NCBI GenBank assembly: GCA_963712305.1
Contig: CAVQHI010000002.1
Coordinates: 1,488,885-1,552,884 of the forward strand
Source of the DNA: an uncultured bacterium
Lineage (GTDB): Bacteria > Bacteroidota > Rhodothermia > Balneolales > DATFMH01
Reading direction: 5' to 3'
DNA: 64,000 nt
Part shown: in pieces, positions 43,311-59,973 of the stretch
Position numbering within the stretch: position 1 is the stretch's first letter
Layout: every line of letters starts with the position of its first letter
Translations under genes and position numbers: made by a program
Notes under the pieces: model-generated
Databases searched by the model: none
What the model was told of the DNA's origin: nothing
Seen by the model: only the letters and a program-made list of their open reading frames with translations

Positions 43311-45605
43311 TTAGTTGCCGGATTCACCCGTTACGGTAAAATCAGCTGTTTTTACAGAATCGGAGTTCGTTCCGACCATTACAGAGTATGCTCCCGGAGC
43401 GATAACTTTCTTCATGTTGATGTCGTACCGTTCCAGTTTTTTGGGTGTCACTTTAAACGTTACTTCCCTGCTTTCACCGGGTTGCAGTGTCACACTTTTG
43501 AAGCCTTTCAGCTCTTTCACCGGTGGTGATACCTCATTGTAGTGTTCGTGCAGGTACATCTGAACCATCTCTTCGCCTTCAACTTTTCCCGTGTTTGTAA
43601 CGGTTGTGGTGACGGTTAGGGAGTCCGTTGGTGAGATGCTGGTTGCACTAAGCTGAGGTGCGGAATAAGAGAATGTTGTATAGCTCAAGCCAAAACCGAA
43701 CGGATAAAGGGGTGAGTTAAGAACATCCAGGTATTTAGAAGTATACTTGTTGTTAGGGTTTCTCGGGCGCCCGGTATTCGTGTGATTGTAATAGACCGGT
43801 ATCTGACCAACATCACGCGGGAAAGACATAGTGAGCTTACCACTTGGGTTGTAATCGCCAAAAAGGACGTCGGCGATGGCGTGACCGCCTTCAACTCCGG
43901 GATACCATGCTTCGAGAATGGACGGAACATTGTCGTGCAGCCAGTCTATGGTAAGCGGACGTCCGTTCATTAGTACGACGACAACCGGTTTGCCGGTCTT
44001 TATCACAGCTTTAACCAGTTCAACCTGGTTGCCAGGGATGCCTATCTTCGACCGGCTGGCAGCCTCACCTGTCATGGCACGTGATTCACCGATTACCAGG
44101 ACCACCACATCTGAACTGCTGGCGGCAGCGACAGCAGCGGGGAAACCGGATTTCGATGTTCCTTCGATGTCAGTTCCCTTCACATAATGAATTTTTGTGC
44201 TGGATGACACTGCTTCCTTCATTCCCTGCAGGATGGTCACGACATCCTTTGCTTCCCCGGCACCTGACCATGAACCGAGTAAATCATCCTGATCATCAGC
44301 AAGAGGGCCGATCAGAGCAATGTTGTGGAAATCTTTTGACAGCGGGAGAATGCTGCCGTCATTTTTCAACAGTACCATGGACTTGCGGGCTACCTTGCGT
44401 GCTAGTTTGCGGTTTCCATCGTTGAGGATCGTTTGTGCCGCACGGACTGAATCGCTGTAGGCATAAGGATTATCAAAAAGACCAAGTTTGAATTTGGTTG
44501 CCAGGATACGGCGAACGGCCTGGTCAATTAAATCTTCGCTGACTTTGCCTTCGTGAACAAGTTTGGGCAGCTGGGTAAGGAAATAACCGGCCTGCATGTC
44601 CATATCAACGCCGGCTTTAACAGAACGTAGCGCAGCCTGGGCTGAATCTTTGGCAACTTCGTGATTCTGCAGTTCCATAATTGCCGTATAATCGGTAACA
44701 ACAAATCCTTTGAAACCCCACTCGTGGCGAAGGACGTCTGTCATAAGAAAATGATTTTCCGTAGACGGGACACCATTGAGCGTATTAAATGAGGTCATGA
44801 CGGTTGCCGCACCGGCATCCACGGCAGCCTTGTAAGTCGGCAGATACATGGTGCGAAGACGACGCATCGACATATCTACGGTATTGTATTCCCGGCCCGC
44901 TTCGACAGCACCGTAGGCCGCAAAGTGTTTTACGCAAGCCAGCACGGTATTGGGAGCGGACAGGTCCGTTCCCTGAAACCCATGAACAGCAGCAGCAGCG
45001 ATTTTTGATCCCAGGTATGGATCTTCACCGGCACCTTCCATAACGCGGCCCCAGCGGGGATCCCTTGAGATATCGACCATGGGTGCAAACGTCCAGTGCA
45101 ATCCTTCGGAGGCGGCTTCAGCAGCTGCCACGCTGTCAGCCTGACGAACCATATTGGGATCCCATGTACACGACTCTGCAAGGTTAATAGGGAAGATGGT
45201 CCGAAAACCGTGAATCACATCAAAACCAAATAGCAGTGGAATATGTAGCCGTGTACTATCGACGGCCAGTTTCTGGAGCTTTCGGGTATATTTCCAGCCA
45301 ATGGCGTTGAAAATGGAACCCACCTTGCCTTCCTTAACAAGGTTTCGATAGTTGGGATTGATCGTTGGACCCGTTGTTGCATAAGTGCTGGTAAACTGGG
45401 TCATTTGTCCCACTTTCTCTTCAATGGTCATTTTGGAGAGAACAGAATCTGCTTTGTGTAGAATTTCCGGCGTTGCAAATTGTTTTTGTGCTGGTGGCAC
45501 GTTCTGCACGCTTTGCTCGTTTACGGGCTCACAACCAGCTACCAAAAGGATTGAAATCACTATCGGTATCAGGCTGGCAGCTAATTTTTTGATATTACTC
45601 CACAT
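43311..45605 (-). CDS. bglX: GH3 periplasmic beta-glucosidase
   Basis: 764 aa. Lipobox-like LLVAGC. KVGQMTQ, GFDVIHGFRT, SRDPRWGRVMEGAGEDP, nucleophile region GFVVTDY, C-terminal Fn3-like domain. Confidence 0.92.
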   Translation of the reverse strand: MWSNIKKLAASLIPIVISILLVAGCEPVNEQSVQNVPPAQKQFATPEILHKADSVLSKMTIEEKVGQMTQFTSTYATTGPTINPNYRNLVKEGKVGSIFNAIGWKYTRKLQKLAVDSTRLHIPLLFGFDVIHGFRTIFPINLAESCTWDPNMVRQADSVAAAEAASEGLHWTFAPMVDISRDPRWGRVMEGAGEDPYLGSKIAAAAVHGFQGTDLSAPNTVLACVKHFAAYGAVEAGREYNTVDMSMRRLRTMYLPTYKAAVDAGAATVMTSFNTLNGVPSTENHFLMTDVLRHEWGFKGFVVTDYTAIMELQNHEVAKDSAQAALRSVKAGVDMDMQAGYFLTQLPKLVHEGKVSEDLIDQAVRRILATKFKLGLFDNPYAYSDSVRAAQTILNDGNRKLARKVARKSMVLLKNDGSILPLSKDFHNIALIGPLADDQDDLLGSWSGAGEAKDVVTILQGMKEAVSSSTKIHYVKGTDIEGTSKSGFPAAVAAASSSDVVVLVIGESRAMTGEAASRSKIGIPGNQVELVKAVIKTGKPVVVVLMNGRPLTIDWLHDNVPSILEAWYPGVEGGHAIADVLFGDYNPSGKLTMSFPRDVGQIPVYYNHTNTGRPRNPNNKYTSKYLDVLNSPLYPFGFGLSYTTFSYSAPQLSATSISPTDSLTVTTTVTNTGKVEGEEMVQMYLHEHYNEVSPPVKELKGFKSVTLQPGESREVTFKVTPKKLERYDINMKKVIAPGAYSVMVGTNSDSVKTADFTVTGESGN

Positions 45606-45905
45606 AATAAGAAATGGTTAAGGTTGGCATAAAAAAAGGTCAGGCGACCAGTGGTGAAATTTCGTTTTGCATAAACAGTGCAATTGTATGAAAATGAATG
45701 GTATTATATTCAATTGCAAGTAAACAGGTTATACTCTTTTGACTGAATTTTTAGTTTTTGTGGTCATAATTGTATTAGATTTTAAATACTTGTCGTGATG
45801 AACATTAAGACGGAATATCTCGCCAATTTTTTTTGTTAGTATATACCGAAGCGTTTTTTTCATTTTTTAAGTTCATCGAACGTTTCCTTCATAACCTTGA
45901 ATGTG

Positions 45906-46532
45906 ATGTCTCATCCATCCAAAATAAGTGAAAATGTAGAATTAGAGAACCTCTGGTCAGGAGTTCGAGAGGGAGACAAGCGTGCTTTTTCAGCATTATT
46001 TCTTCAGAATTATAACCATCTCTACAATTACGGCCGCAAATTATATAATGAAAGCGATATTGTTGAAGACGCGATACAGGATGTTTTTGCAACGATCTGG
46101 CAAACCAAGGAGAGGCTCTCGCCGGTTTCTTCAGTCAAGGCTTATCTGATCATATCGCTGCGCAGGCAGTTGCTTCGGATGCTTCAAAAGAAACGGATGG
46201 TGGATCCGATAGGCGACAGCATAAAAGACATCATTCCAAATATCGAATTTAGCGCTGACGAGATCGTACTCAATTCAGACCACGATCCTTTGCACAAATC
46301 ACTCGTTGAAGTCCTTAATCAGCTGCCGAATCAGAAAAAGGAAGTGATCTATCTGTACTTTTACAGTGGTATGGACTATGAAGAAATAGCTCAAATAATG
46401 GACCTAACTATCCAAACGGTAAGGAATTACATGTCAATGGCCTTATCACGTGCAAAAGATATCATTATTGAAAATAAACTCCCTCAGTTTCTGCTTATAC
46501 TGACCATTTTGGCCATGATTCTCCCACATTAA
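45906..46532 (+). CDS. ECF-type RNA polymerase sigma factor (Bacteroidetes PUL type)
   Basis: TTG 45897 in the track; the first ATG is at 45906. Region 2 (FSALFLQNYNHLYNYGRKL...DAIQDVFATIW) and region 4 HTH (MDYEEIAQIMDLTIQTVRNYMSMA). Followed by anti-sigma and STN-SusC genes. The C-terminus has a hydrophobic tail FLLILTILAMIL. Confidence 0.85.
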   Translation: MSHPSKISENVELENLWSGVREGDKRAFSALFLQNYNHLYNYGRKLYNESDIVEDAIQDVFATIWQTKERLSPVSSVKAYLIISLRRQLLRMLQKKRMVDPIGDSIKDIIPNIEFSADEIVLNSDHDPLHKSLVEVLNQLPNQKKEVIYLYFYSGMDYEEIAQIMDLTIQTVRNYMSMALSRAKDIIIENKLPQFLLILTILAMILPH

Positions 46533-46746: not shown

Positions 46747-47817
46747 TTGGAAGAGAATTCACATTCACTGGAATCGCTGCTCGGAGATGAGTCATTTCAT
46801 CGCTGGGTACTTAATAAGTCAAATAAAGAGGAAGCCGAATATTGGAAGCAATGGATCCGGGCTTCTTTGGAAAACAGAGTTTTAGCTGATAAGGCCAGCA
46901 AGGTTCTGCTGGATCTAAAAATTGTTTCAAAGTATCAGCCCGATGCGGTGAAGCAGTTGAAGAAGCTCAATCAAAGGATTAACGACGATCATTCATCATC
47001 TTTGATGTTCCCTTTTGAAAGCAGACGTAAAAACAAGATTTGGAAGACTGCATTTCGTTATGCAGCTGTTATCCTGATCGCTGCGCTTTCCGGGTATGGC
47101 TATTGGCTATATCAGGGCCGAAGTCACACAAAGGATGAAAAAGTGGCAATGCTGGAGGTCAATACGAAGTATGGAGAACAGAAGGTTCTGAAGCTGTCTG
47201 ATGGTTCTCAGATCTATCTCGCTCCAAATTCCCATTTAAGATATGCCTCCAACTGGTTGAAGCAGCCAGTCAGGAAGTTGCATCTGGATGGTGAAGCTTA
47301 TTTCAATATCGTCGGGACACGCCAGCCGGTAAAAGCTGAGTATGAAATACAAACAGACGCTGGCATCATTCGCGATTTAGGAACACAGTTCAACGTTTCA
47401 ACTTTTAATAACCGAACTTCGGTAGTCCTGAGAAAGGGACTTGTGACAGTAAAAGCAAAGAAAAGTAAGGAGAGCGAAGAAGTTAAACTGCAACCCGGTC
47501 AGATGGCTTCGATCCGCGGCAACGATACCAGGGTAAATATCACCAGTGTGAATCCGGAAGTCTACACTTCATGGACGACCAACCTCCTGGTATTTGATCA
47601 TACACCGTTGAACAGCTTCATACAGATGCTCAAAGATCTCTACGGTGTCGATGTGGTCGTTAAAGAACCATCTCTTCTGAATAAAGAACTGACCGGTGAT
47701 ATTGAAAAACAAAGCCTCAGCACCATACTGACGGCGGTTTCCAGGGTTTTAAATTTAAATGTGTACCAACGGGGACAAACGGTATTTATCGATAGTAAGG
47801 TCCTCGAAAAGAACTAA
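46747..47817 (+). CDS. FecR-family anti-sigma factor / transmembrane sensor
   Basis: TTG start. N-terminal LLGDESFHRWVL...EYWKQWI, single TM (AAVILIAALSGYGYWLY), FecR domain (LSDGSQIYLAPNSHLRY...LDGEAYFNI), C-terminal DUF4974-like segment. Confidence 0.85.
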   Translation: MEENSHSLESLLGDESFHRWVLNKSNKEEAEYWKQWIRASLENRVLADKASKVLLDLKIVSKYQPDAVKQLKKLNQRINDDHSSSLMFPFESRRKNKIWKTAFRYAAVILIAALSGYGYWLYQGRSHTKDEKVAMLEVNTKYGEQKVLKLSDGSQIYLAPNSHLRYASNWLKQPVRKLHLDGEAYFNIVGTRQPVKAEYEIQTDAGIIRDLGTQFNVSTFNNRTSVVLRKGLVTVKAKKSKESEEVKLQPGQMASIRGNDTRVNITSVNPEVYTSWTTNLLVFDHTPLNSFIQMLKDLYGVDVVVKEPSLLNKELTGDIEKQSLSTILTAVSRVLNLNVYQRGQTVFIDSKVLEKN

Positions 47818-47831: not shown

Positions 47832-50800
47832 ATGAACAGGAGTAAGCTACTGTTTCCAGGGATTTTCCTGTTGAATTTTATGATTGTCGGGGGAGCTTTA
47901 GCGGCTGTCCCGCAATCAACACAAAATGCAAATCATGAAGAATTGACCTCGATCTACCGACCCACGATTAAGAAGAGTGTATATGTTCATGATTTGTCGA
48001 TACAACAGGCACTAAATATCATACAGGATAATTACCACGTCATTTTTCTCCATGAAAGCGGGTTACTGGACGGGAAAACAGTAAAGTACGAAGAAGCACT
48101 TCCTAATGATCCTTTTATGGCTATAAAAGCGATTTTATCAGGTTATAATCTGCAGGTTGACCGGCTTAATGATCATTCGTTTGTTATCTATCCAGAGACG
48201 GCGGAAAAGAAAGTGGAAGCCTCGCCGGTAGATGCCGCCATACAGCAGGCCATAAGCGGTAAGGTAACTGATGCTTCAACCGGTGAATCTTTGCCTGGTG
48301 TCAACATTATCGTCCCGGGCACGAGTATTGGTACAGCTACTGATGCCAACGGTCAATACACCCTTGATGCACCCGAATCGGCTGATAGTCTCATGTTTTC
48401 CTATATCGGATACGCTACTCAAACAGTTGCCATTAACGGCCGGTCAACGATTAATATCACACTCTCTCCGACCACCCTGAAATCCAGCCAGGTTGTGGTA
48501 GTTGGTTACGGTACCCAGAGAAAGAAAGATTTGACCGGATCGATTTCGCAGGTCAGCGGATCGGACATTGCGAAAATACCAACAACTGATGTAAACAACG
48601 CTTTGCAGGGAAAATTGGCCGGTGTTCAGGTTACTCCTAATTCGGGTCAGCCCGGGGCAAGCGCAACGGTCAGAATCCGCGGGGTTGGAACATTGAATAA
48701 TGCTTCGCCTATTTATGTGGTTGATGGGATGATTACAGATGATATTTCGTACCTCAATCCTGATAACATTGAATCGATGGAGGTTCTGAAAGATGCCTCT
48801 GCCACGGCTATTTACGGTTCTCGCGGTGCGAATGGTGTGATCATAATTACTACGAAGCATGGCAGCCGAAACCAGGGAGCCCAATATAGTTTCAACGCCT
48901 ATTATGGCTGGCAGGAAATTCAACATAAGATTGGCCTGGCAAACGGTGAGCAATATGCCACGTTAGTTAATGAATTAAATGCCAATGAAGGCCGGGGACC
49001 TGCGTTCCAAAATCCGTCACAATTTGGTAATGGAACAGACTGGCAGAATTTGGTATACAATACCGCTCCAATGATGAATTATGATATGTCGGTGAACGGC
49101 GGCACCACACACATGACCTATAATGTCAGCGGCAGCTATATAAAACAGAAAGGAATAATCGATGGGAGTAATTACGAACGTATGTCACTTCGTGTAAACA
49201 ATACCTATTTCCTTTCTGATTTTGTTCATATTGCACACAACATATCGTTTACGCACAGCTATCAGCAAGATGCTGCCAACGGGGTGATTGGAGATGCCTA
49301 TCGCGCAGATCCGACAAAATCAGCTTATGACTCGAATGGTGATTTCAGTAACATTACAGCTCTTGCTCCGGTTGGAAACCCATTGGCTGCAATATACTAC
49401 TTGCATAATCGCCACTATGCGGATCGACTTGTTGGAAATGTATATGCTGACTTTAATTTTCTGAAAAGTTTCGAATTCAAATCCAGTTTTGGATTGGATG
49501 CCTGGTGGAAAGACAATAAAAACTTCACTCCCCAGTATATCGTATCGCCGATCCAGCAGAGCCAGTACAGTACACTTTCGGTTGGAAATGACCAGTCGAG
49601 AAACTGGCTGTGGGAAAATACGTTGCATTATCGTGCCACATATGGTGAAAGCAATATTACAGCGTTGGCTGGTGTGACTTTCCAGGGATTCAAAGATGAA
49701 ACCCTGACTGGAAGTCGTAACAATATCGCTGCAAACGGATATGATCCGGCTCTTTGGTATTTGCAGGCCGGTGATCAGACCACTGCCGGTAACGGCAACA
49801 CAGCTTATGACTGGAGCATGCTGTCGTATCTTTTCCGTGTAAATTATTCCCTCATGGATCGTTATCTGTTGACGGCCACTTATCGTATTGATGGATCTTC
49901 CCGTTTCGGTAAGAATAACCAGTATGGTCATTTCCCATCGATAGCTGCCGGCTGGCGTATTTCTGAAGAGCCATTCATGAGAGATATCTCGTTTATAAAT
50001 AATCTGAAGCTGCGTGCCAGTTGGGGAAAGATCGGTAATGATAAAATCAGCGCCTATCCTGGTATTCCGACCATCACTACAAATCTGAATTATCCCCTGG
50101 GACCGGGTGAGACCCTGAATTCAGGGGCAACCATTGTAGCTCTTGCAAATCCAAATGTCAGATGGGAAGAAACCGATCAGACTGATATAGGGCTTGAGTC
50201 AGATTTTCTTGACAGTAGATTGTCATTTGAAGTGGATTATTACAATCGTAAGACCAAGGGAATCCTTGTTGAGGCGCCAATTCCTTCATATGTCGGTGCC
50301 AGCAATAATCCAGTTGTAAACGCTGCAGAAGTGACGAATAAGGGTTTTGATTTCAATGCGAAATGGAATGATCTGATTGGCGACCTGAGCTATAACATCG
50401 GCCTGGTGGCTTCTACTGTTCACAATGAAGTTAACAGTATCGGACAGGGACGCGACGCCATCTTCAGTGGTGGAACCGGTGAAGGTGGGAAACTGGCAAC
50501 CAGGACGGCCCCCGGTCATCCTATCGGAGCTTTTTATGGCTACAATGTGATTGGCGTATTCCAAAACCAGAGTCAGCTGGATAACAACGCACAGTATGGA
50601 ACCGAACAGCCAGGTGACCTGATGTATCAGGATCTTAATGGCGATGGTGTGATTACGGACCAGGACAGGATGTATCTTGGCTCGCCTATTCCAAGCTTCA
50701 TCTTTGGAGCTAACCTTGGTGCAAGATATAAAGGTGTTGACCTGTCAGTGAGCATAAGTGGCCAAACGGGTAACAAGATCTACAATGCAAAGAAAACAGC

Positions 50801-51173
50801 TCGATTTGGAACACCCAATTTTGAGACATCGTACCTGAACCGCTGGCATGGAGAAGGAACCAGTAACTGGGAACCCAGAGTTACGAATGGTGGTGTCGAT
50901 TATCTCGTATCCAATCGTTTCCTCGAAGACGGATCTTACCTGAAGATCCAGAATATCCAGTTGGGTTATACGCTGCCATCACGCTTCATGAATCAGGCCT
51001 ATCTGAAAAGGGTTCGTATTTATGTCAGTGGGACGAACCTGGTAACATTCACAAAATACAGTGGATACACGCCTGAAATCCCAAGCCAGAGCAGTGTTCT
51101 TAGCAATAGCATCGACACAGGAATATACCCGGTTGCCCGGACATTCACGGTTGGTGTAAATGTTGATTTCTAA
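47832..51173 (+). CDS. SusC-like TonB-dependent transporter with N-terminal STN signalling domain
   Basis: 1113 aa. STN domain (LSIQQALNIIQDNYHVIFLHESGLLDGKTV...ILSGYNLQVDRLNDHSFVIY). Carboxypeptidase-regulatory-like domain (ISGKVTDASTGESLPGVNIIVPGTSIGTATDANGQYTL). Plug (VVVGYGTQRKKDLTGS), then a barrel ending VNVDF. Confidence 0.93.
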   Translation: MNRSKLLFPGIFLLNFMIVGGALAAVPQSTQNANHEELTSIYRPTIKKSVYVHDLSIQQALNIIQDNYHVIFLHESGLLDGKTVKYEEALPNDPFMAIKAILSGYNLQVDRLNDHSFVIYPETAEKKVEASPVDAAIQQAISGKVTDASTGESLPGVNIIVPGTSIGTATDANGQYTLDAPESADSLMFSYIGYATQTVAINGRSTINITLSPTTLKSSQVVVVGYGTQRKKDLTGSISQVSGSDIAKIPTTDVNNALQGKLAGVQVTPNSGQPGASATVRIRGVGTLNNASPIYVVDGMITDDISYLNPDNIESMEVLKDASATAIYGSRGANGVIIITTKHGSRNQGAQYSFNAYYGWQEIQHKIGLANGEQYATLVNELNANEGRGPAFQNPSQFGNGTDWQNLVYNTAPMMNYDMSVNGGTTHMTYNVSGSYIKQKGIIDGSNYERMSLRVNNTYFLSDFVHIAHNISFTHSYQQDAANGVIGDAYRADPTKSAYDSNGDFSNITALAPVGNPLAAIYYLHNRHYADRLVGNVYADFNFLKSFEFKSSFGLDAWWKDNKNFTPQYIVSPIQQSQYSTLSVGNDQSRNWLWENTLHYRATYGESNITALAGVTFQGFKDETLTGSRNNIAANGYDPALWYLQAGDQTTAGNGNTAYDWSMLSYLFRVNYSLMDRYLLTATYRIDGSSRFGKNNQYGHFPSIAAGWRISEEPFMRDISFINNLKLRASWGKIGNDKISAYPGIPTITTNLNYPLGPGETLNSGATIVALANPNVRWEETDQTDIGLESDFLDSRLSFEVDYYNRKTKGILVEAPIPSYVGASNNPVVNAAEVTNKGFDFNAKWNDLIGDLSYNIGLVASTVHNEVNSIGQGRDAIFSGGTGEGGKLATRTAPGHPIGAFYGYNVIGVFQNQSQLDNNAQYGTEQPGDLMYQDLNGDGVITDQDRMYLGSPIPSFIFGANLGARYKGVDLSVSISGQTGNKIYNAKKTARFGTPNFETSYLNRWHGEGTSNWEPRVTNGGVDYLVSNRFLEDGSYLKIQNIQLGYTLPSRFMNQAYLKRVRIYVSGTNLVTFTKYSGYTPEIPSQSSVLSNSIDTGIYPVARTFTVGVNVDF

Positions 51174-51214: not shown

Positions 51215-53098
51215 ATGAAGATGATAACCTCAAAAAAACAAACGATTGCCGGCCTGACAGTGGCAGTACTAGCGATAGTGCTGGTTTCAGGCTGTAATAA
51301 TTTTTTGAATAAGAAGCCGCTGGGTCAACAGACATCGGAAACCTTTTTCCAAAACCAGCAGGACGCGATTGATGCAACCAATGCTACCTATCAAATTCTG
51401 CAAACATGGCAGGTTCACGTATTTTCATGGCTTGGTCTGACCGATATCATATCGGACGATGCCGATAAAGGAAGCACGCCAACAGATGCATCATTTCTGC
51501 TGGACTTGGATAACCTGCAATATGATCCGGGAAATCTTGCTTTCTCAGATCCATGGGGCGGTTACTACAAGGGAATTTTCCGGGCTAATCAGGCCATAGC
51601 CAATATCCCGAATATCAAAAATATGGACGCAAATTTGAAAGCGCGTCTTATCGGGGAAAACAAGTTTCTGAGGGCCTACTTCTATTTCTTCCTGGTACGT
51701 GGCTGGCAGAAAATACCGTTGATCACCAAGCCTCTCTTACCCTCCGAGTATTATAATCAGGCAAACTCAACCCCCGACTCAGTGTATAACCAGATTATCA
51801 GTGATTTAACGGATGCGGCTCAGTCACTTCCGCTTAAATCGCAATATGCTTCGTCTGATCTGGGGCGTGCAACAAAAGGTGCAGCAGAAGGGATGCTCGC
51901 TAAAGTATATCTGTATCACAAAGACTATGCGAATGCACTCAAATATGCCGAGATGGTTATCAATTCCGGGGAGTATGCGCTTGATCCGAATTATTCGAAT
52001 ATATTCACTCAGGCTGGGGAAAATTCCTCAGAGAACATTTTCTCAGTTCAAAATACAGCAACTGAGACTGGTCAGGGCGGCAGCCAGTACAACCAGGTTC
52101 AAGGTGTTCGCGGCAATCCAAATCTTGGCTGGGGTTTCAATAATCCGTCTCAAGACCTGATTGCTTCTTATAGCCAGGGCGATCCACGTCAGGAATCGAC
52201 GGTCCTGTTCGTTTGGGAAGCTCTACCCGATGGATCCGGTTTGGCCGTACATGATAATCCCAACATGAACAATGAGGACTACAATCAAAAAGCATTCGTT
52301 CCTCTGGATCATTTGGGAGGACAAGGTGATGGCCCCGGTAATATTCGTATCCTTCGCTATTCAGACGTATTGCTGATTGCTTCTGAAGCTGCCTACCAAA
52401 CAGGTGATGCTACCACAGCACAGAAATATCTGAACATGGTCCGTGAGCGTGCTCGTGGTGGCGTTACAGCTACAATTGGTGCCGCAACAGAAGGTGTCGC
52501 ACCGGTCATTGCTGATACACTGAATATGCCGAATCTCAGTGGCATGCCGTTCATCCGTTACGCCTGGGCTAACAGTCCTGCGGCTAATGCAGGATTGAAA
52601 AACTTCTCCTACTCGCTGCAGAACAACAGCAGCCTGATTGTCGTCGACACGATGGATGTCATTCAGAGTGTCAATGGAACGGCAGTGAGCAGTGAGGCTG
52701 ATTTCATGAATGCGATGAAGGGAATTTCTCCTGGTCAGAATGTAACTCTGACTGTACAGCGCATCATGCAAACCTACGATGGTCAGTCACAAACCAATAC
52801 AACTACTACGCAGGCTGTGGTGGCAAATATGACAGCTGAGGCACTGCTTCCTGATGTGACTGCCACGGGAACAGATCTGTTGCACGCTATCTGGCATGAG
52901 CGTCGCTCTGAACTGGCAATGGAACAGCATCGCTGGTTTGACCTACTGCGCGAAAACAGCGTTGAGCCGGGATGGGCACAAGCTCAAATGGCCAAAGACG
53001 GAAAGACCTTCACGGATAAGAATACCGTCTTCCCAATCCCGCAAACCGAAATTGATCTGAGCAACGGAACGCTTAAACAAAACACGCCTCCGTGGTGA
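51215..53098 (+). CDS. SusD/RagB-family lipoprotein carrying a ~120-aa PDZ-like insertion
   Basis: 627 aa. Lipobox LVSGC. SusD core (ENKFLRAYFYFFLVRGW; HERRSELAMEQHRWFDLLRE). Relative to the other SusD in the window, an extra segment lies between VRERARGG and DLLHAIWHERR. Confidence 0.88.
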   Translation: MKMITSKKQTIAGLTVAVLAIVLVSGCNNFLNKKPLGQQTSETFFQNQQDAIDATNATYQILQTWQVHVFSWLGLTDIISDDADKGSTPTDASFLLDLDNLQYDPGNLAFSDPWGGYYKGIFRANQAIANIPNIKNMDANLKARLIGENKFLRAYFYFFLVRGWQKIPLITKPLLPSEYYNQANSTPDSVYNQIISDLTDAAQSLPLKSQYASSDLGRATKGAAEGMLAKVYLYHKDYANALKYAEMVINSGEYALDPNYSNIFTQAGENSSENIFSVQNTATETGQGGSQYNQVQGVRGNPNLGWGFNNPSQDLIASYSQGDPRQESTVLFVWEALPDGSGLAVHDNPNMNNEDYNQKAFVPLDHLGGQGDGPGNIRILRYSDVLLIASEAAYQTGDATTAQKYLNMVRERARGGVTATIGAATEGVAPVIADTLNMPNLSGMPFIRYAWANSPAANAGLKNFSYSLQNNSSLIVVDTMDVIQSVNGTAVSSEADFMNAMKGISPGQNVTLTVQRIMQTYDGQSQTNTTTTQAVVANMTAEALLPDVTATGTDLLHAIWHERRSELAMEQHRWFDLLRENSVEPGWAQAQMAKDGKTFTDKNTVFPIPQTEIDLSNGTLKQNTPPW

Positions 53099-53119
53099 TG
53101 CTCCGCAAAGTGACATAAA

Positions 53120-53160
53120 AAGTAAGGGATGTCTGGTTCAGGCATCCCTTACTTTTAATT
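53120..53160 (+). terminator. Rho-independent terminator after SusD
   Basis: Perfect 12-bp stem AAGTAAGGGATG / CATCCCTTACTT with an 11-nt loop, running into TTTTAATT. Confidence 0.7.
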
Positions 53161-53258
53161 ATGAATTTTAAGTTTTGAATTTTGAATTGATTTATGTAAA
53201 AAGAGGCGAAATATTAAAAAACAATAGCTTTTGCATTCTGACACTAATACAGTAAGCC

Positions 53259-55040
53259 TTGCCCAACTATCAACGATCCACTAACAACAAACGACTGACT
53301 ATTCAGATAATCATGGTTGGGTGGTTTGCATTTGTAAACCCTGTATCAGCACAGTCGACGAAACGTCTCACGTACTGCAACCCGGTTGACATCAACTATC
53401 AGTACCAGTATCTCCATCAGGATAAAGGTATATCGTACCGTTCGGGTGCCGACCCGGTGATAGAGAATTATAAAGGCGATTACTACCTGTTTGCAACGAA
53501 TTCCAATGGGTGGTGGCATTCGAAAGATTTGGTGAACTGGAACTACGTCGTACCAACGCTTTGGCCAAAGGAACACGTCAATGCACCGGCCGTCAGGGTC
53601 GTAGACGACACTCTCTTCATGATACAATCGGGACGCGCTCCTCTGTTTTACAGCACTGATCCCGCAAGCGGGAAGCTTCACTATTACAACCGGATGATGC
53701 CGAAAATTCCCGGCAAGGCACCACAGGTCGATCCTGATATTTTTTACGACAGCAACTCTGGAAAGTGGTTTATGTATTACGGCTCATCTAATTATTATCC
53801 GCTCTATGCCATTCAGCTCAATTACAATAAAAAGCTGGCATACGAGGGAGATCCGATACCACTGCTCCGGCTTCATCCAAAAGAACATGGCTGGGAGCGA
53901 TTCGGTTATGATCATCGTGATACCACCATCACTCCATTTATTGAAGGCGCATGGATGACCAAACATGATGGCAAATACTACCTTCAGTATGCCGCACCCG
54001 GCACGGAATTCAATGTTTATGGAAATGGTACCTATATCGGCAATAGTCCGACCGGTCCCTTTACCTATGCGCCGAATAACCCGGTTTCATATAAACCTGG
54101 TGGATTTGTTACAGGCACGGGTCACGGTAACACATTCAGAGACAATTATGGCAATTACTGGAATACGGGAACCTGCTGGATAGGAGTAAACTGGAATTTC
54201 GAGCGGCGGATCGTGATGTTTCCATCCAAATTCGACAAGGACGGAGAATACCATGCGGATACGAGATTTGGTGATTTCCCACATTATTTCCCGGATCACA
54301 AATGGAATAACGGCGCATCGCTATTTACCGGGTGGATGCTGCTGTCCTATAAGAAACCGGTCACAGCATCATCTACAGCGGACACATTTCTTGTCGCCAA
54401 TGTTACAGATGAAAATCCACGAACGTTCTGGGTGGCAAAGACCAATCACGAGGGAGAAGGACTGACGGTTGATCTTCAACATGCAGACAGTGTAAAAGCT
54501 GTCCAGGTTAATTACAGCGATTATAAATCCAATATTTATCACAGCACTGATTCTGTCCATACGCAGATTCGACTTTACGCATCGACGGATGACCAGCACT
54601 GGACCAAGATAGCCGATCTGACGGATCAGAAGAAAGATCGACCCAACGCTTACATCCCGCTCGATACGCCGGTAAAGGCCCGTTACATTAAATTTGAAAA
54701 TGTCTATGTAGCTTCACTCCATCTGGCGATCAGCGATATCAGGATATTCGGAAACAGCGATGAGCCCAATCCCGGGACGCCCGGTGATTTTACGGTTAAG
54801 CGTGAGAATGATCAGCGAAATGCTAAGGTTAGATGGAATAACGTGCCGGGGGCTGTCGGGTACAATATTCTATGGGGCATCAAAAAAGATAAGCTATACG
54901 AAACGTACCAGATCTTTGCTGATCAGGGAAATTCGAAAGAAATTCGGTCACTGGATACCGGTCAGGCTTACTGGTTTGCCATCGAAGCTTTTAACGAACA
55001 CGGCGTATCAAAACGGAGCAAAGCCATTCATGTTGAATGA
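53259..55040 (+). CDS. GH43-like five-bladed propeller hydrolase with F5/8 type C (discoidin/CBM32-like) and Fn3 domains
   Basis: The TTG start gives the signal peptide NNKRLTIQIIMVGWFAFVNPVSAQ. Propeller motifs SGADPVI, VDPDIF, FIEGAWM. Discoidin-like block VTASSTADTFLVANVTDENPRTFWVAK...AVQVNY. C-terminal Fn3 (PGDFTVKRE...VRWNNVPGAVGYNILWG). Confidence 0.78.
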   Translation: MPNYQRSTNNKRLTIQIIMVGWFAFVNPVSAQSTKRLTYCNPVDINYQYQYLHQDKGISYRSGADPVIENYKGDYYLFATNSNGWWHSKDLVNWNYVVPTLWPKEHVNAPAVRVVDDTLFMIQSGRAPLFYSTDPASGKLHYYNRMMPKIPGKAPQVDPDIFYDSNSGKWFMYYGSSNYYPLYAIQLNYNKKLAYEGDPIPLLRLHPKEHGWERFGYDHRDTTITPFIEGAWMTKHDGKYYLQYAAPGTEFNVYGNGTYIGNSPTGPFTYAPNNPVSYKPGGFVTGTGHGNTFRDNYGNYWNTGTCWIGVNWNFERRIVMFPSKFDKDGEYHADTRFGDFPHYFPDHKWNNGASLFTGWMLLSYKKPVTASSTADTFLVANVTDENPRTFWVAKTNHEGEGLTVDLQHADSVKAVQVNYSDYKSNIYHSTDSVHTQIRLYASTDDQHWTKIADLTDQKKDRPNAYIPLDTPVKARYIKFENVYVASLHLAISDIRIFGNSDEPNPGTPGDFTVKRENDQRNAKVRWNNVPGAVGYNILWGIKKDKLYETYQIFADQGNSKEIRSLDTGQAYWFAIEAFNEHGVSKRSKAIHVE

Positions 55041-55341: not shown

Positions 55342-57606
55342 ATGAATTTATCAACAAATAAAGCAAGAAGATCAATAACCCGTAATTCATGCCTGATCAT
55401 GGTGGTTGGCTTGATCTTCTTTCAAGCCTGTACGGAGCATAGCGTTCAAAAAAAGATGGCAGAACATGGTGAAACTGCGATGAATGCTAAGATCGATTCG
55501 CTGCTCAGTCAAATGACACTGGAAGAAAAGGTCGGTCAGTTGACAGTCATGGGCGCAGATCGTAAGAACCTCAAAGAATTAATCAAAGAGGGTAAAGTCG
55601 GTGGCACGAATGGTGTGTTGCCCGGCAGGGATGTGGGTCCATATACAAATGAGATGCAGAAACTGGCGATGCAGTCCCGGTTGAAAATCCCGCTTATGTT
55701 CATGGGCGATGTGATCCATGGCTTCCGGACCGTATTCCCGGTCCCTTTAGCCCTGACTTCCTCGTGGGACCCTGAACTTACACAAGAAATGGACAGTGTA
55801 TCTGCTATTGAAGCTACGGCCGCGGGCGTCGATTGGACCTTCACGCCTATGGTCGATATCAGCCGGGATCCGCGCTGGGGTCGTGTTGTTGAAGGCGCCG
55901 GAGAAGATCCTTGCCTCGGATCAAAAATTGCTGCGGCAGCGGTACACGGATTTCAGGGAAGCAGTCTGTCCGATCCCAATACTATGATGGCAACCGCTAA
56001 ACATTTTGCAGGTTACGGAGCTGTGGAAAGCGGGCGTGATTACAATACGGCGGATATGTCCGATCGTCGTTTGAAAACGATATATCTACCCCCATTCAAA
56101 GCAGCAAACGATCAGGGCATCGGCTCGTTCATGGCCGCTTTTGTTTCATTCGATGGTGTCCCGGCAACAGCTAACAGCTACTTGTTAACGGATATTTTAC
56201 GCAAACAGTGGGGTTTCAATGGACTTGTCGTCTCAGATTATGATGCCATTCCGGAACTGCAACAACATGGCATAGCAGGTTCACCGGCAGAAGCCGCACG
56301 CCTGGCTATCAATGCCGGAATCGACGTAGACCTGCACAGTGGAACTTACATTGATAATCTCCCGGAATTGGTGAAGGATGGGAAAGTCAAAGAATCAGTT
56401 ATTGATAATGCGGTGCGACATGTTCTTGAAGCGAAGTACAAGCTGGGACTTTTTGATGATCCTTATAAATATGGTGGAGCAAATCGTAAAAACCAGGAAG
56501 AATTGCTCAAGGAACATCGACCGATTGCCAGGGATATTGCCCGTAAGTCGATGGTACTGCTAAAAAATGAGGATCATCTGCTTCCTCTTAATAAAGATGT
56601 AAAATCGATCGCCGTCATTGGTCCGCTTGCAGATGATAAAGAAGATTTACTGGGGGCCGTACATGCTCTTGGACGTCCTGAAGAAGCGTTAACCGTGCTT
56701 CAGGGAATCAAAAATGCCGTTTCACCGAATACCAAAGTTGTTTATTCGAAAGGAACCGGAATAGACAGTCATGATACCACAGGTTTTGCTGAGGCAGTGT
56801 CAGCGGCCCGGAAGTCAGATATTGTTGTTATGGCTGTTGGCGAGAGTGCCGGGATGAGCGGGGAAGGCGATAGCCGGTCAATGCTTAATCTGCCCGGAAA
56901 CCAATTGGACCTTGTGAAAGCCGTGATGAATACAGGTAAACCGGTCGTCGTAGTGTTATTGAATGGCCGGCCATTAGTCATCAACTGGCTCCATGATCAC
57001 GTTCCAGCCATTCTCGAATCGTGGCTTCCGGGAACGGAAGGAGGACCGGCTGTCGCAGATGTATTGTTCGGTGATTACAATCCGTCGGGAAAACTGCCCA
57101 TGACATTTCCCCGCGATGTCGGACAAATTCCGATCTACTATGATCACCTGAATACCGGCAGGCCGTTCAAGCCGGACCAAAAATATGTTAGCCGCTATAT
57201 CGATATACCAAATACGCCGCTCTATTCCTTTGGATATGGATTGAGTTACACAACCTTTTCGTATTCGTCGATTCATCTTAATACACAAAACATGGGGTGG
57301 AATGATACGCTGCAAGTCTCAGCAAATGTTAAAAACACTGGTGACAGAAAAGGCTCAGACGTTGTTCAGTTATATATTCACGATGTCGTTGCGAGCATCA
57401 GTCCCCCGGTAAGAGAATTGAAAGGATTTCAACGTGTGAAACTCAATCCGGGTGAATCGAAAGCAGTCACATTCAGACTAACGCGTAACGATCTTGCTTT
57501 CTATAAAAAAGACATGAGTTTTGGTGCAGAACCGGGCAGGTTTGAAGTTTATGTGGGCGGAAATCCGGATTCGCTTCGGCAGGCTGATTTTACACTATCG
57601 ATGTAG
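55342..57606 (+). CDS. bglX: GH3 beta-glucosidase, paralog of 43311..45605
   Basis: 754 aa. KVGQLTV, GDVIHGFRT, SRDPRWGRVVEGAGEDP, GLVVSDY. Collinear with the other GH3, roughly 60% identity by eye. Confidence 0.92.
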   Translation: MNLSTNKARRSITRNSCLIMVVGLIFFQACTEHSVQKKMAEHGETAMNAKIDSLLSQMTLEEKVGQLTVMGADRKNLKELIKEGKVGGTNGVLPGRDVGPYTNEMQKLAMQSRLKIPLMFMGDVIHGFRTVFPVPLALTSSWDPELTQEMDSVSAIEATAAGVDWTFTPMVDISRDPRWGRVVEGAGEDPCLGSKIAAAAVHGFQGSSLSDPNTMMATAKHFAGYGAVESGRDYNTADMSDRRLKTIYLPPFKAANDQGIGSFMAAFVSFDGVPATANSYLLTDILRKQWGFNGLVVSDYDAIPELQQHGIAGSPAEAARLAINAGIDVDLHSGTYIDNLPELVKDGKVKESVIDNAVRHVLEAKYKLGLFDDPYKYGGANRKNQEELLKEHRPIARDIARKSMVLLKNEDHLLPLNKDVKSIAVIGPLADDKEDLLGAVHALGRPEEALTVLQGIKNAVSPNTKVVYSKGTGIDSHDTTGFAEAVSAARKSDIVVMAVGESAGMSGEGDSRSMLNLPGNQLDLVKAVMNTGKPVVVVLLNGRPLVINWLHDHVPAILESWLPGTEGGPAVADVLFGDYNPSGKLPMTFPRDVGQIPIYYDHLNTGRPFKPDQKYVSRYIDIPNTPLYSFGYGLSYTTFSYSSIHLNTQNMGWNDTLQVSANVKNTGDRKGSDVVQLYIHDVVASISPPVRELKGFQRVKLNPGESKAVTFRLTRNDLAFYKKDMSFGAEPGRFEVYVGGNPDSLRQADFTLSM

Positions 57607-57706
57607 AAGCTGGTTTAAGCGTTCTCGCTTGAACCGCGCCAGTGTATGATACTGGCGAGGACGCCTATACCAGCGAAAGAGAAGTATTTTAAAAACTGCA
57701 AATTTG

Positions 57707-59143
57707 ATGCAAAAGGAAAATCTTATGAAAACGTCTTCGAATAAAACAGGATTGGCACTTGCCGTATTGATGTGCATACTGGTATTCGGCGGGTGCAAGC
57801 AGCGATCGACGAATGAGAATTCTGGTCCGGACAGTACCATCACCGAGAACGATAAAGTGTTCCTGGATACGCTCGAACTGCGGACGTTTCATTATTTCTG
57901 GGATCTGGCCGATCCGAATACAGGGCTCATTCCAGATCGAGCGCCCACAAAATCATTTTCAAGTATAGCGGCGACGGGTTTTGGTCTGGCTTCATACGTT
58001 ATTGGTGTTGAACGCGGGTACGTCTCCCGCCAGGATGCTGCAGCCCGCGTACTCAAGACGCTCAAATTCTTCTGGAACGCCCCTATGGGCTCCGATGCAA
58101 CCGGTGTGTCAGGGTACAAAGGCTTCTATTATCACTTCCTGGATATGAGTACCGGTGAGAGGTTCAAAAATGTAGAACTTTCTACAATCGATACGACCTG
58201 GCTGTTGGCGGGCATCCTGACCTGCCGCGATTACTTCGACGGTTCATCCGCCGACGAAACGCAAATTCGGGCACTTGCAGATTCTATTAATAATCGTGTC
58301 GACTGGCCGTGGATTACGAAGAGCGACGGACTGGTCAGTATGGGTTGGCATCCGGAGAGTGGGTTTTTGAACGCCGAATGGAGTGGATACAACGAGGGAA
58401 TGTTTTTATACGTGTTGGCGCTGGGCTCACCAACTCATCCACTCCCGGGCAGTGCGTGGACGAAGTGGACACAGACGTATCAATGGGGAAATTTCTATGG
58501 ATATCTCGGCGTGCAGTTTGGTCCGCTGTTTGGTCACCAGTATTCCCAGATGTTTGTCGATTATAAGGGGATCCAGGATGCGTACATGAAACAGAAAGGC
58601 AGTGATTATTTCGAAAACGCAAAGAATGCCACCCTTGGCCAGATTGCTTATGCAGAGAAAAATCCGAAACAGTTCGATGGTTATGGTGAAAATGTCTGGG
58701 GACTTACAGCATGCGACGGTCCCGGTGACACAACCATAACCGTGTATGGCAACTCGATTCACTTCAGAGGCTACAGTGCCAGGGGGGAAGCTGCCAATTA
58801 TGATGTTGATGATGGCACCTTAGCGCCCACTGCTGCCGGCGGCTCGATAGCCTTTACACCAAAAAGAAGTATTGCAGCCCTGGAGTATATGAAAAGCAAC
58901 TACCCCGGAATCTGGAGCGACTACGGGTTTAAAGACTCATTCAATCCCACCTGGCCGCTGAAGCAAAACGGTGAGAAAGCGTGGTATGATAAGGATTATC
59001 TTGGCATTGACCAGGGACCCATCCTGATCATGGCTGAAAATTACCGAACCGGTTTAATCTGGAACCTGTTAAAGAAAGACTCCGTAGTTGTGCGCGGGTT
59101 GAAAAAAGCCGGTTTCTCTGGCGGCTGGCTGAACATAAAATAG
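57707..59143 (+). CDS. GH144-like (putative glucoamylase/DUF3131 family) endo-beta-1,2-glucanase candidate, lipoprotein
   Basis: TTG 57704, ATG 57707. ATG 57725 gives MKTSSNKTGLALAVLMCILVFGGC (lipobox). TFHYFWDLADPNTGLIPDR, SSIAATGFGLASYVIGVERGY, GFYYHFLDMSTGERF, ELSTIDTTWLLAGIL. These match my recollection of the Pfam Glycoamylase/GH144 family. Confidence 0.72.
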   Translation: MQKENLMKTSSNKTGLALAVLMCILVFGGCKQRSTNENSGPDSTITENDKVFLDTLELRTFHYFWDLADPNTGLIPDRAPTKSFSSIAATGFGLASYVIGVERGYVSRQDAAARVLKTLKFFWNAPMGSDATGVSGYKGFYYHFLDMSTGERFKNVELSTIDTTWLLAGILTCRDYFDGSSADETQIRALADSINNRVDWPWITKSDGLVSMGWHPESGFLNAEWSGYNEGMFLYVLALGSPTHPLPGSAWTKWTQTYQWGNFYGYLGVQFGPLFGHQYSQMFVDYKGIQDAYMKQKGSDYFENAKNATLGQIAYAEKNPKQFDGYGENVWGLTACDGPGDTTITVYGNSIHFRGYSARGEAANYDVDDGTLAPTAAGGSIAFTPKRSIAALEYMKSNYPGIWSDYGFKDSFNPTWPLKQNGEKAWYDKDYLGIDQGPILIMAENYRTGLIWNLLKKDSVVVRGLKKAGFSGGWLNIK

Positions 59144-59876: not shown

Positions 59877-59973
59877 GTTCTTTTGGGGGGAGGGAATAAT
59901 AGCATCTCATAAAAATTAATCATTATATCGTGCACACATTAAAAAAGGGTTGCGGGACATAGGGATTGAGATT

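What the first reader, a model, noticed from the sequence alone, without database searches (positions are those of the whole stretch)
52460..52870. PDZ-like domain inserted into a SusD-family lipoprotein
The two SusD-like proteins in the window can be compared directly. In the first, about 18 aa separate VRTRAA from IDFILDERARELLGEYHRWFDL. In the second, 137 aa separate VRERARGG from DLLHAIWHERRSELAMEQHRWFDL. The extra segment reads MPFIRYAWANSPAANAGLK...DVIQSVNGTAVSSEADFMNAMKGISPGQNVTLTVQRIMQ...TTTTQAVVANM. This reproduces the HtrA/Prc-type PDZ pattern (V..V..SPA..AGL..GD.I..VNG..V.S..D....L....G..V.L.V.R), apart from an ~18-aa gap between AGLK and DVI. I am not aware of SusD-family glycan-binding proteins carrying a PDZ module. 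It sits in the helical C-terminal region that faces the SusC lid. It could add a peptide or C-terminus binding function, or tether a partner enzyme.
Basis: partly seen in the sequence, partly recalled or inferred. Interest (0 to 1): 0.7.

Follow-up and report, generated by a model that had tools for sequence, protein, structure and literature searches.

The report
HtrA-type PDZ domain inside SusD lid
The outer-membrane "lid" lipoprotein (SusD) of a likely beta-1,2-glucan uptake locus carries a complete, well-folded PDZ domain of the kind found in HtrA proteases. The domain was gained once and is conserved in a clade of soil and sediment bacteria, but the literature I could search does not describe it and its function is unknown.

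Summary
The 627-aa SusD (51215..53098, +) has 137 residues where the window's other SusD has 16 and the closest solved SusD about 12. The true insertion is about residues 417-542 (nt 52463-52840).

It is a real PDZ domain:
- Pfam PDZ_2 scores above the curated cutoff.
- AlphaFold2 confidence is about 94-99 across the insert.
- All top 50 fold matches are PDZ-bearing HtrA/Deg-family proteases or isolated HtrA PDZ domains.
- The ΦGΦ ligand loop is conserved.

It is not unique. All 120 best homologs carry it (Balneolales, Rhodothermales, Gemmatimonadota). They form one clade, sister to insert-less orthologs (Saprospiraceae, Lewinellaceae) in the same SusC/SusD + GH144 + GH3 locus type. The insert is under purifying selection (dN/dS about 0.06-0.13), and independent assemblies span it.

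By homology to SusD-dex it follows TPR4 helix α13, on the surface-facing scaffold and not the SusC-facing ligand region.

Function is inferred only. I favour a docking module for another surface component, at modest confidence. Tests for a partner C-terminal motif and for matching SusC indels were negative. The searchable literature does not describe it. I rate it a new variant of a known kind.

The parts
51215..53098 (+). susD-like gene, 627 aa; lipoprotein (lipobox LVSGC, Cys27)
   Evidence: ORF. Pfam SusD-like_3 at E = 1.3e-24 and SusD_RagB at E = 4.2e-31. AlphaFold2 pLDDT 91.6, pTM 0.90. Foldseek hits to solved SusDs. Cys27 is invariant in 121 homologs.
52358..52456 (+). Helices 382-395 and 399-414, equivalent to TPR4 (alpha12/alpha13) of SusD-dex; the insertion follows directly
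   Evidence: Secondary structure of the model. Alignment to 9sje_B residues 311-414. TPR assignment in the SusD-dex paper.
52463..52840 (+). Inserted HtrA-type PDZ domain, residues about 417-542
   Evidence: PDZ_2 at 34.2 bits against a cutoff of 27. Insert-only model pLDDT 95.5. Foldseek top 50 all HtrA/Deg-family proteins. Boundaries from insert-less orthologs. dN/dS 0.13 against the 96%-identical relative.
52472..52483 (+). T-I-G-A (family consensus T-L-G-I): the ΦGΦ carboxylate-binding loop at the start of strand betaB
   Evidence: T420 in 118 of 121 and G422 in 119 of 121 homologs. Aligns with 'LGI' of HtrA PDZ domains.
52547..52564 (+). Strand 445-450 (PFIRYA) holding R448, invariant in all 121 homologs and specific to this family
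   Evidence: The 12 aligned HtrA PDZ domains have M, N, Q, A or V at this column.
52601..52654 (+).
   Evidence: Strands 465-469 and 474-486 in the model. The nearest HtrA PDZ domains have a 15-20 aa segment at the same place.
52694..52720 (+). Helix 494-502 (alphaB), which would flank the canonical ligand groove; its surface positions vary
   Evidence: for the helix; for per-position variability.
52739..52834 (+). Long C-terminal beta-hairpin (509-522 and 527-540), about 15 residues longer than in HtrA PDZ domains; the SusD-specific elaboration
   Evidence: for the strands; for the alignment gaps in all 12 HtrA PDZ domains.
52841..52873 (+). Native SusD loop (ALLPDVTATGT) shared with insert-less orthologs
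   Evidence: Insert-less orthologs read xxVLPDVTTTDQ at this place. P546 and G552 are invariant.
47832..51173 (+). susC-like TonB-dependent transporter, 1113 aa, with an N-terminal extension of about 110 aa
   Evidence: Pfam CarbopepD_reg_2, Plug and TonB_dep_Rec_b-barrel.
45897..46532 (+). ECF-type sigma factor
   Evidence: Pfam Sigma70_r2 and r4_2.
46747..47817 (+). FecR-type anti-sigma factor
   Evidence: Pfam FecR and FecR_C.
43311..45605 (-). GH3 glycosidase (lipobox LVAGC)
   Evidence: Pfam GH3 N-terminal, C-terminal and Fn3-like domains; N-terminus.
53259..55040 (+). GH43-like protein with an F5/8 type C domain
   Evidence: Pfam. The same gene follows the SusD in L081 and L082.
55342..57606 (+). 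GH3 glycosidase
   Evidence: Pfam.
57704..59143 (+). GH144-family protein, a likely endo-beta-1,2-glucanase (lipobox VFGGC)
   Evidence: Pfam PF10091. E = 1.3e-142 to 8xul XCC2207 (XcSGL) and 3e-53 to 5gzh endo-beta-1,2-glucanase. XcSGL is a characterised GH144 beta-1,2-glucanase (PMC12102758).

Best explanation
Shown: the gene is the SusD lid lipoprotein of a SusC/SusD + GH144 + GH3 locus, most likely for beta-1,2-glucan. It carries a complete PDZ domain of about 126 aa nested in the short loop after TPR4 helix alpha13. The domain derives from the hairpin-bearing subclass of HtrA-protease PDZ domains. It was gained once in the ancestor of a SusD clade now found in Balneolales, Rhodothermales and Gemmatimonadota. 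It has been kept under purifying selection and is predicted to be a compact domain with a confident position on the SusD body. Inferred: because the insertion point lies on the TPR scaffold, which faces the cell surface in SusD-dex, the PDZ projects outward from the lid and not into the transporter. Most likely mechanism (inference, about 0.4): it is a docking module. It would use the conserved ΦGΦ loop and the betaB/alphaB groove to bind a strand or terminus of another surface component, such as a glycan-binding protein, the GH144 lipoprotein or a neighbouring complex, holding that component at the lid. Its canonical glycan-binding region is conserved at sequence level between insert-bearing and insert-less orthologs. 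My confidence that it is a real, conserved, HtrA-derived PDZ insertion is about 0.95. The confidence given below is for the whole statement including the docking role.
For: Identity: PDZ_2 above cutoff; 50 of 51 homolog inserts match PDZ_2 at E <= 0.01; pLDDT about 94-99 across the insert and pTM 0.90 for the whole protein; Foldseek top 50 all HtrA/Deg-family proteins; profile hits to DegP, DegQ, Deg1 and Deg8 in the PDB; the nearest non-SusD relatives among 1.84 billion representatives are Trypsin_2 + PDZ_2 proteases, which share the 15-20 aa hairpin. Single gain: insert-bearing proteins are monophyletic on a tree built from core columns only, sister to insert-less orthologs in the same locus type. 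Selection: dN/dS 0.06-0.13 in the closer Balneolales-type pairs; T420, G422, R448, D481, G488, G507 and R516 are at least 92% conserved. Not an artefact: independent contigs span it. Outward placement: TPR region described as the surface-facing side, TPR4 as alpha12/13, and no named SusC contact near the site. Docking role: the ΦGΦ loop is retained; established knowledge is that HtrA-type PDZ domains bind peptide strands or C-termini by beta-augmentation; utilisome work shows accessory lipoproteins assembling around SusCD and moving above the closed lid. Canonical site kept: the N[LI]GWGFNxP motif of the ligand region is shared by insert-bearing and insert-less orthologs.
Against: No ligand or partner was identified. 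The C-termini of GH144, GH3 and GH43 proteins in insert-bearing loci show no shared hydrophobic motif distinguishing them from insert-less loci. No gene is specific to insert-bearing loci except a LacI regulator. Surface positions of helix alphaB vary, which argues against one conserved peptide ligand. The outward placement rests on homology and a paper's description, not on coordinates; I could not inspect the model in 3D or model the SusC complex. The high pTM suggests rigid packing, which fits a purely structural role equally well.
Confidence: 0.45

Rival explanations
1. Accessory glycan-capture module. The PDZ fold has been repurposed as an extra carbohydrate-binding or hand-over surface on the outside of the lid. 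It would do the job that a separate surface glycan-binding protein does in related loci.
For: 36 of the 54 insert-less orthologous loci encode a roughly 900-aa T9SS-anchored protein with a sub-threshold CBM_4_9 match. True orthologs are absent from all 26 insert-bearing loci. The insertion sits on the exposed side of the lid, where the glycan-binding protein's C-terminal domain is seen in the dextran utilisome. The family-specific invariant R448 and the mostly aromatic residue 449 are not typical of HtrA PDZ domains.
Against: To my knowledge no PDZ domain is known to bind carbohydrate. The anticorrelation is fully confounded with phylogeny, since it separates Saprospiraceae-type Bacteroidota from Balneolales and Gemmatimonadota. 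No cluster of conserved exposed aromatic residues could be shown without coordinates.
Confidence: 0.22
2. Structural brace. The PDZ has no external ligand. It packs rigidly on SusD, and possibly against SusC loops or the second SusCD unit of a dimer, to stabilise the lid or tune its opening and closing in these outer membranes.
For: Very high model confidence and pTM 0.90 indicate a defined position against the SusD body. The invariant R448 and the SusD-specific elongated hairpin could form the domain interface. Purifying selection is weaker than in the core, with dN about 1.5 times higher in most of the closer pairs.
Against: No SusC indel co-varies with the insert in 19 versus 38 SusC partners. 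Insert-less orthologs operate the same locus type without it. The strongly conserved ΦGΦ loop suggests a retained binding function.
Confidence: 0.25
3. Artefact or decaying passenger: an assembly chimera, or a recently acquired domain with no function.
For: None found. The weakest point is that function is unproven.
Against: Independent contigs from three runs span both junctions without indels. All 120 best homologs across several orders and two phyla keep a 126-149 aa insert. dN/dS is far below 1. The fold is confident.
Confidence: 0.02

Closest known systems
SusD/RagB family lid lipoproteins; closest solved is SusD-dex of the Bacteroides thetaiotaomicron dextran utilisome (9SJK, 9SJJ, 9SJE)
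   Same: Lipoprotein with four TPR pairs and a ligand region. Encoded directly after a SusC transporter inside a glycan-utilisation locus. phmmer E = 1.4e-54. Fold matches to levan, laminarin and beta-glucan SusDs.
   Different: Solved SusDs bridge the site after TPR4 alpha13 with about 12 residues. This protein has a 126-aa PDZ domain there. No solved SusD among the sequence hits has an extra domain at this site.
PDZ domains of HtrA-family serine proteases (Pfam PDZ_2), especially the hairpin-bearing type seen in plant Deg1 and Deg8 and cyanobacterial HhoA
   Same: Same fold. ΦGΦ loop, the helix after betaB, the SPA..AGL motif, the D-[VI]-I-x-[SA]-[VI]-[ND]-G strand and the G..V.L.V.R strand all align. 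There is a 15-20 aa hairpin at the same place.
   Different: No protease domain. Nested inside another protein's loop, so both ends rejoin SusD. Expected at the cell surface rather than in the periplasm. Longer C-terminal hairpin. Invariant Arg448. Only 19-30% identity to the nearest HtrA PDZ domains.
Insert-less orthologous SusDs of Saprospiraceae, Lewinellaceae and other Bacteroidia GH144/GH3 loci (loci L026-L080)
   Same: 52-60% identity in the core. Same partner SusC, GH144 and GH3 genes. Same native loop motif VLPDVT.
   Different: 12-14 residues at the site in place of the PDZ. These loci usually add a T9SS-anchored CBM-like protein and place GH144 and GH3 upstream of susC.
GH144 beta-1,2-glucanase systems (CpSGL 5GZH, XcSGL 8XUL)
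   Same: The locus encodes a close GH144 homolog plus GH3 enzymes.
   Different: Here the enzymes are coupled to a SusC/SusD importer. I did not find a characterised SusCD-type beta-1,2-glucan locus in the papers searched.

Membership tests
SusD/RagB family | Matches both SusD-like_3 (PF14322) and SusD_RagB (PF07980) above the curated cutoffs | tested here: met
   88.0 bits against a cutoff of 27, and 109.1 bits against 23.1.
SusD/RagB family | Lipoprotein signal peptide with a lipobox cysteine | tested here: met
   The N-terminus is MKMITSKKQTIAGLTVAVLAIVLVSGC. Cys27 is invariant in 121 homologs. Read from the sequence; no predictor was run.
SusD/RagB family | Encoded immediately downstream of a SusC-type TonB-dependent transporter | tested here: met
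   SusC at 47832..51173 ends 41 nt before the susD start. The pairing is conserved in nearly all of the 80 related loci.
SusD/RagB family | All-alpha TPR-scaffold fold like solved SusDs | tested here: met
   AlphaFold2 pLDDT 91.6. Foldseek E down to 5.5e-22 with target TM-scores 0.73-0.81 for the top hits.
SusD/RagB family | Binds the target glycan and caps SusC | not testable with these tools
   Needs biochemistry or a structure of the complex.
PDZ domain (Pfam PDZ_2, HtrA type) | Profile match above the curated cutoff | tested here: met
   30.8 and 34.2 bits against a cutoff of 27. 50 of 51 homolog inserts match at E <= 0.01.
PDZ domain (Pfam PDZ_2, HtrA type) | PDZ fold (beta-sandwich with helices alphaA and alphaB) | tested here: met
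   Insert-only model pLDDT 95.5. Foldseek probability 1.00 to Deg8, Deg1, DegP, DegS, DegQ and AlgW. Query TM-score is only 0.5-0.6 because of the extra hairpins.
PDZ domain (Pfam PDZ_2, HtrA type) | ΦGΦ carboxylate-binding loop before strand betaB | tested here: met
   T-[LI]-G-[IFL] with G422 in 119 of 121 homologs. Aligns with 'LGI' of HtrA PDZ domains.
PDZ domain (Pfam PDZ_2, HtrA type) | Binds a peptide C-terminus or strand in the betaB/alphaB groove | not testable with these tools
   An indirect test for conserved partner C-termini was negative.
HtrA/DegP protease family | Trypsin-like serine protease domain N-terminal to the PDZ | tested here: not met
   No Trypsin_2 or Trypsin match in the 627-aa protein. 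Only the PDZ is HtrA-like, so this is not an HtrA protease.
Beta-1,2-glucan utilisation locus (GH144-based) | Encodes a GH144 endo-beta-1,2-glucanase homolog | tested here: met
   E = 1.3e-142 to XcSGL (8xul) and 3e-53 to CpSGL (5gzh). The enzymology is from PMC12102758.
Beta-1,2-glucan utilisation locus (GH144-based) | Encodes beta-glucosidase-type GH3 enzymes to finish degradation | tested here: met
   Two GH3 genes. GH3 linkage is seen in 18 of 26 insert-bearing and 36 of 54 insert-less loci. Substrate specificity was not tested.
Beta-1,2-glucan utilisation locus (GH144-based) | Induced by, and required for growth on, beta-1,2-glucan | not testable with these tools
   Needs culture work, for example in Rhodohalobacter sp. 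SW132, which encodes homolog P0060.

The most novel reading that the evidence does not exclude
The PDZ domain is a built-in partner-docking or glycan hand-over arm on the outer face of the SusD lid. It would functionally replace the separate surface glycan-binding protein of related loci. That would be a PDZ domain working at the bacterial cell surface in glycan import, and an example of a SusD lid that recruits its own accessory function by domain insertion, then spread between Balneolales/Rhodothermales and Gemmatimonadota.
Probability: 0.3. Interest if true: 0.75.

Novelty: new variant of a known kind. Interest (0 to 1): 0.55.

Why it matters
In the solved structures I compared, SusD lids are single-domain proteins that differ mainly in their ligand-binding loops. 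A whole foreign interaction domain grafted onto the scaffold side, and kept under selection across two phyla, suggests the lid can do more than bind glycan. It may recruit partners or extend capture. This bears on how SusCD machines are organised outside the well-studied gut Bacteroides.

The system offers a natural experiment. Orthologous loci exist with and without the domain, so swap or deletion constructs are obvious. At least one cultured organism, Rhodohalobacter sp. SW132, carries a homolog. The locus itself is also a candidate SusCD-type importer for beta-1,2-glucan, a substrate whose enzymology has only recently been worked out.

Tried and rejected
1. Partner C-terminus test. I compared the last 10 residues of GH144, GH3 and GH43 proteins in insert-bearing and insert-less loci. 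No insert-specific hydrophobic motif emerged.

2. SusC co-variation. Among 19 SusC partners of insert-bearing SusDs and 38 of insert-less ones, no indel tracks the insert, even at relaxed thresholds.

3. Insert-specific neighbour genes. The only enriched cluster (13 of 26 versus 1 of 54 loci) is a LacI-type regulator, not a structural partner. The four apparent insert-bearing members of the CBM-protein cluster share only the Por secretion tail.

4. A DNA-pattern scan with the insert alignment failed because no stretch was conserved enough. The full-length alignment was used instead.

5. A Pfam scan of the full 121-sequence alignment exceeded the residue limit. It was redone on the insert segments.

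6. The SusC-SusD interface spreadsheet of the SusD-dex paper is not held, so the interface could not be checked residue by residue.

7. The first dN/dS run on L083 was misaligned by compensating indels. It was redone with protein-guided codon alignments. The high-GC Gemmatimonadota pairs give unreliable dS and were not used.

8. The apparent dispersed repeat at 53154-53190, seen as inflated depth, is only AT-rich low-complexity sequence.

9. Peptide import in the manner of RagAB was considered and rejected as the main role, because the locus content is glycoside hydrolases.

Full report
**Observation**

The ORF 51215..53098 (+) encodes a 627-aa protein. It matches both SusD family models far above their cutoffs. 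VRERARGG is residues 409-416 and DLLHAIWHERR begins at residue 554, so 137 residues (nt 52463-52873) lie between them. The AGLK-to-DVI gap is exactly 18 residues, and all quoted strings are present. The closest solved SusD, 9sje_B, crosses the site in about 12 residues.

**Is it a PDZ domain?**

Yes, on several lines of evidence:
- Pfam PDZ_2 scores 30.8 bits in the whole protein and 34.2 bits for the insert alone, against a curated cutoff of 27. PDZ_6 is just below its cutoff.
- Of 51 insert segments taken from homologs, 50 match PDZ_2 on their own at E <= 0.01.
- AlphaFold2 with a 121-sequence alignment gives pLDDT 91.6 and pTM 0.90 for the whole protein, with about 94-99 across the insert. 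The insert modelled alone gives pLDDT 95.5.
- Foldseek of the insert model against the PDB returns only PDZ-bearing HtrA/Deg-family proteases or isolated HtrA PDZ domains in the top 50: Deg8, Deg1, DegP, DegS, DegQ, AlgW, HhoA and others. The best E-value is 3.6e-5 and the probability is 1.00.
- The full model returns only SusD structures.
- A profile of the insert finds DegP, DegQ, Deg1 and Deg8 in the PDB by sequence. The alignment includes the N-terminal strand and helix that the Pfam match had missed.

**Where did the domain come from?**

I searched 1.84 billion representative proteins with the insert profile. Only about 15 representatives cover most of the profile or run through to its end. 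They are 618-631 aa with the match at about 414-563, or shorter proteins that look like fragments; the one I scanned, P0121, is a SusD fragment. Every other hit covers only the PDZ core. The nine I examined include six trypsin-like proteases with PDZ_2 domains, that is HtrA family, and three PDZ-only proteins.

A direct alignment shows three things:
- The ΦGΦ carboxylate-binding loop lines up. HtrA reads 'LGI', the window reads 'IGA', and the SusD family consensus is 'LGI'.
- The SusD version uniquely has a C-terminal hairpin about 15 residues longer, and an invariant Arg448.

Identity to these HtrA PDZ domains is 19-30%.

**How common is it?**

All 120 best database homologs (50-96% identity, 595-651 aa) have a 126-149 aa insert at this site. 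Roughly half carry precomputed PDZ hits. The sources name them only as RagB/SusD family proteins.

A scan of one genome per species returned 80 loci in two classes:
- 26 loci with SusDs of about 611-647 aa (shorter only where the ORF is cut at a contig end), from Balneolales, Cyclonatronaceae, Rhodothermales, Salinivenus, Gemmatimonadaceae and Longimicrobiales.
- 54 loci with SusDs of about 483-546 aa, from Saprospiraceae, Lewinellaceae and other Bacteroidia.

Core identity to the query is similar in both classes. Both are linked to SusC, a GH144-family gene and GH3.

On a neighbour-joining tree built only from core columns, the insert-bearing proteins form one clade, sister to the insert-less ones. 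The insert-less proteins have 12-14 residues at the site and share the flanking motif VLPDVT. This indicates a single gain and fixes the inserted module at about residues 417-542.

**Is it real and maintained?**

Contigs assembled independently from three metagenome runs cross the region without indels or joints. One is a variant about 93% identical, and its listed differences fall almost entirely at sites spaced by multiples of three. Against the 96%-identical relative, dN/dS is 0.13 in the insert and 0.04 in the core. Other moderately diverged pairs give 0.06-0.11 for the insert. The insert is thus under purifying selection, somewhat more relaxed than in the core.

**Locus and likely substrate**

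The neighbouring genes are as follows:

| Coordinates | Strand | Product |
|---|---|---|
| 43311..45605 | - | GH3 |
| 45897..46532 | + | ECF sigma factor |
| 46747..47817 | + | FecR-type anti-sigma factor |
| 47832..51173 | + | SusC |
| 51215..53098 | + | SusD with PDZ |
| 53259..55040 | + | GH43-like protein with an F5/8 type C domain |
| 55342..57606 | + | GH3 |
| 57704..59143 | + | PF10091 protein (GH144 family) |

The PF10091 protein matches XCC2207 (XcSGL) at E = 1.3e-142 and the Chitinophaga endo-beta-1,2-glucanase at E = 3e-53. XcSGL is a characterised GH144 beta-1,2-glucanase (PMC12102758). The locus is therefore most likely a beta-1,2-glucan utilisation locus. This is inferred from homology and conserved linkage, not shown.

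**Where does the domain sit?**

I had no model coordinates. By alignment to SusD-dex, residues 382-414 correspond to TPR4 (alpha12/alpha13). The SusD-dex paper states that the four TPR pairs form the cell-surface-facing side, and that the ligand region (248-381) forms the side facing SusC. None of the SusC contacts it names lies near residues 414-426: alpha1, Trp105, Arg106, Trp109, Phe164, Asn204, Arg208, Gln274, Gln289 and Asp24. So the insertion most likely projects from the scaffold side of the lid and not into the transporter. It is an inference, and the supplementary interface table was not available.

**Mechanism**

Three live readings remain.

*(a) Docking module.* The PDZ keeps the ΦGΦ loop (T420 and G422 at about 98%), and HtrA-type PDZ domains are known to bind strands or C-termini. 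Utilisome structures show accessory lipoproteins arranged around SusCD and moving above the closed lid. Against this reading, PUL-encoded enzymes show no insert-specific C-terminal motif, no partner gene is specific to insert-bearing loci, and the alphaB surface positions vary.

*(b) Glycan-capture surface.* 36 of the 54 insert-less loci encode a roughly 900-aa T9SS-anchored protein with a sub-threshold CBM_4_9 match. It has no true ortholog in insert-bearing loci. This would fit the PDZ standing in for a separate glycan binder. However, the contrast is confounded with phylogeny, and I know of no carbohydrate-binding PDZ domain.

*(c) Structural brace.* The high pTM suggests rigid packing. However, no SusC indel co-varies with the insert, and insert-less orthologs work in the same locus type.

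I favour (a) at about 0.4, with (b) and (c) at about 0.2-0.25 each. An artefact or a dead passenger domain is excluded.

**Novelty**

Three literature searches found no description of a PDZ-bearing SusD, and no solved SusD has a domain at this site. The architecture is nonetheless visible in public databases as automatic Pfam hits, and it is conserved in a sizeable clade. I rate it a new variant of a known kind: a SusD lid with a nested HtrA-derived PDZ domain. Interest is moderate to high for specialists, limited by the lack of functional evidence.

Noticed in passing
window 53112-53165: A strong hairpin directly after the susD stop codon, with a fully paired stem of 17 base pairs (22 pairs in the fold), -27.7 kcal/mol and z = -8.0 against shuffles, followed by UUUUAAUU. 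It is a likely intrinsic terminator or attenuator between susD and the GH43 gene. The simple terminator scan missed it.
   Followed up: partly
window 53154-53190: AT-rich low-complexity stretch (TTTTGAA repeats) with 3-7 times the surrounding depth. Many unrelated metagenome contigs match it on both strands. This is a mapping effect of simple sequence and not a mobile element.
   Followed up: yes
window 47832-48250 (SusC residues 1-140); loci L001, L002, L019: The SusC has an N-terminal extension of about 110 aa (1113 aa against about 1000-1030). SusCs of 1117-1123 aa occur in the related loci that also carry sigma and/or FecR anti-sigma genes. This fits trans-envelope signalling. Other insert-bearing loci use a LacI-type regulator instead, and some insert-less loci have a Reg_prop/Y_Y_Y/LuxR-type regulator.
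   Followed up: partly
L034:4148-6853 and orthologs in 36 of 54 insert-less loci: A roughly 900-aa protein with a sub-threshold CBM_4_9 match and a T9SS C-terminal sorting domain sits upstream of GH144-GH3-SusC-SusD in Saprospiraceae-type loci. It has no true ortholog in the PDZ-bearing loci.
   Followed up: partly
L001 (MAG contig CAWBCD010000045.1), SusDs starting at 10001 and 19925: One contig carries two SusC/SusD pairs about 10 kb apart, both with the PDZ insert (80% and 66% identical to the window protein). They are separated by GH3, sigma and anti-sigma genes, so the PDZ-SusD has duplicated within a genome.
   Followed up: no
Insert segments of Gemmatimonadota homologs (alignment A2); GH144 C-termini in L004-L024: In several Gemmatimonadota homologs the PDZ hairpin holds a pair of cysteines (for example CSDVGCASA and CSGENNTCPS). 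The linked GH144 proteins often end in ...GGWLEGRC. This suggests disulfides in an oxidising, extracytoplasmic setting.
   Followed up: no
L019 (contig binned as Chitinophagales): This PDZ-bearing SusD nests inside the Balneolales-type clade next to the window protein (63-64% identity, with the same FecR-SusC-SusD-GH43 order). The bin label may be wrong, or the locus was transferred.
   Followed up: no
window 6678-15756 and 37835-42741 and 59950-63871: The window holds further glycan-utilisation genes. These are GH97; a second SusC/SusD pair followed by GH28; a GH2 (exo-glucosaminidase-like) with an MFS transporter and a ROK kinase; and a second sigma factor followed by a GH31 with a PA14 domain.
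   Followed up: no
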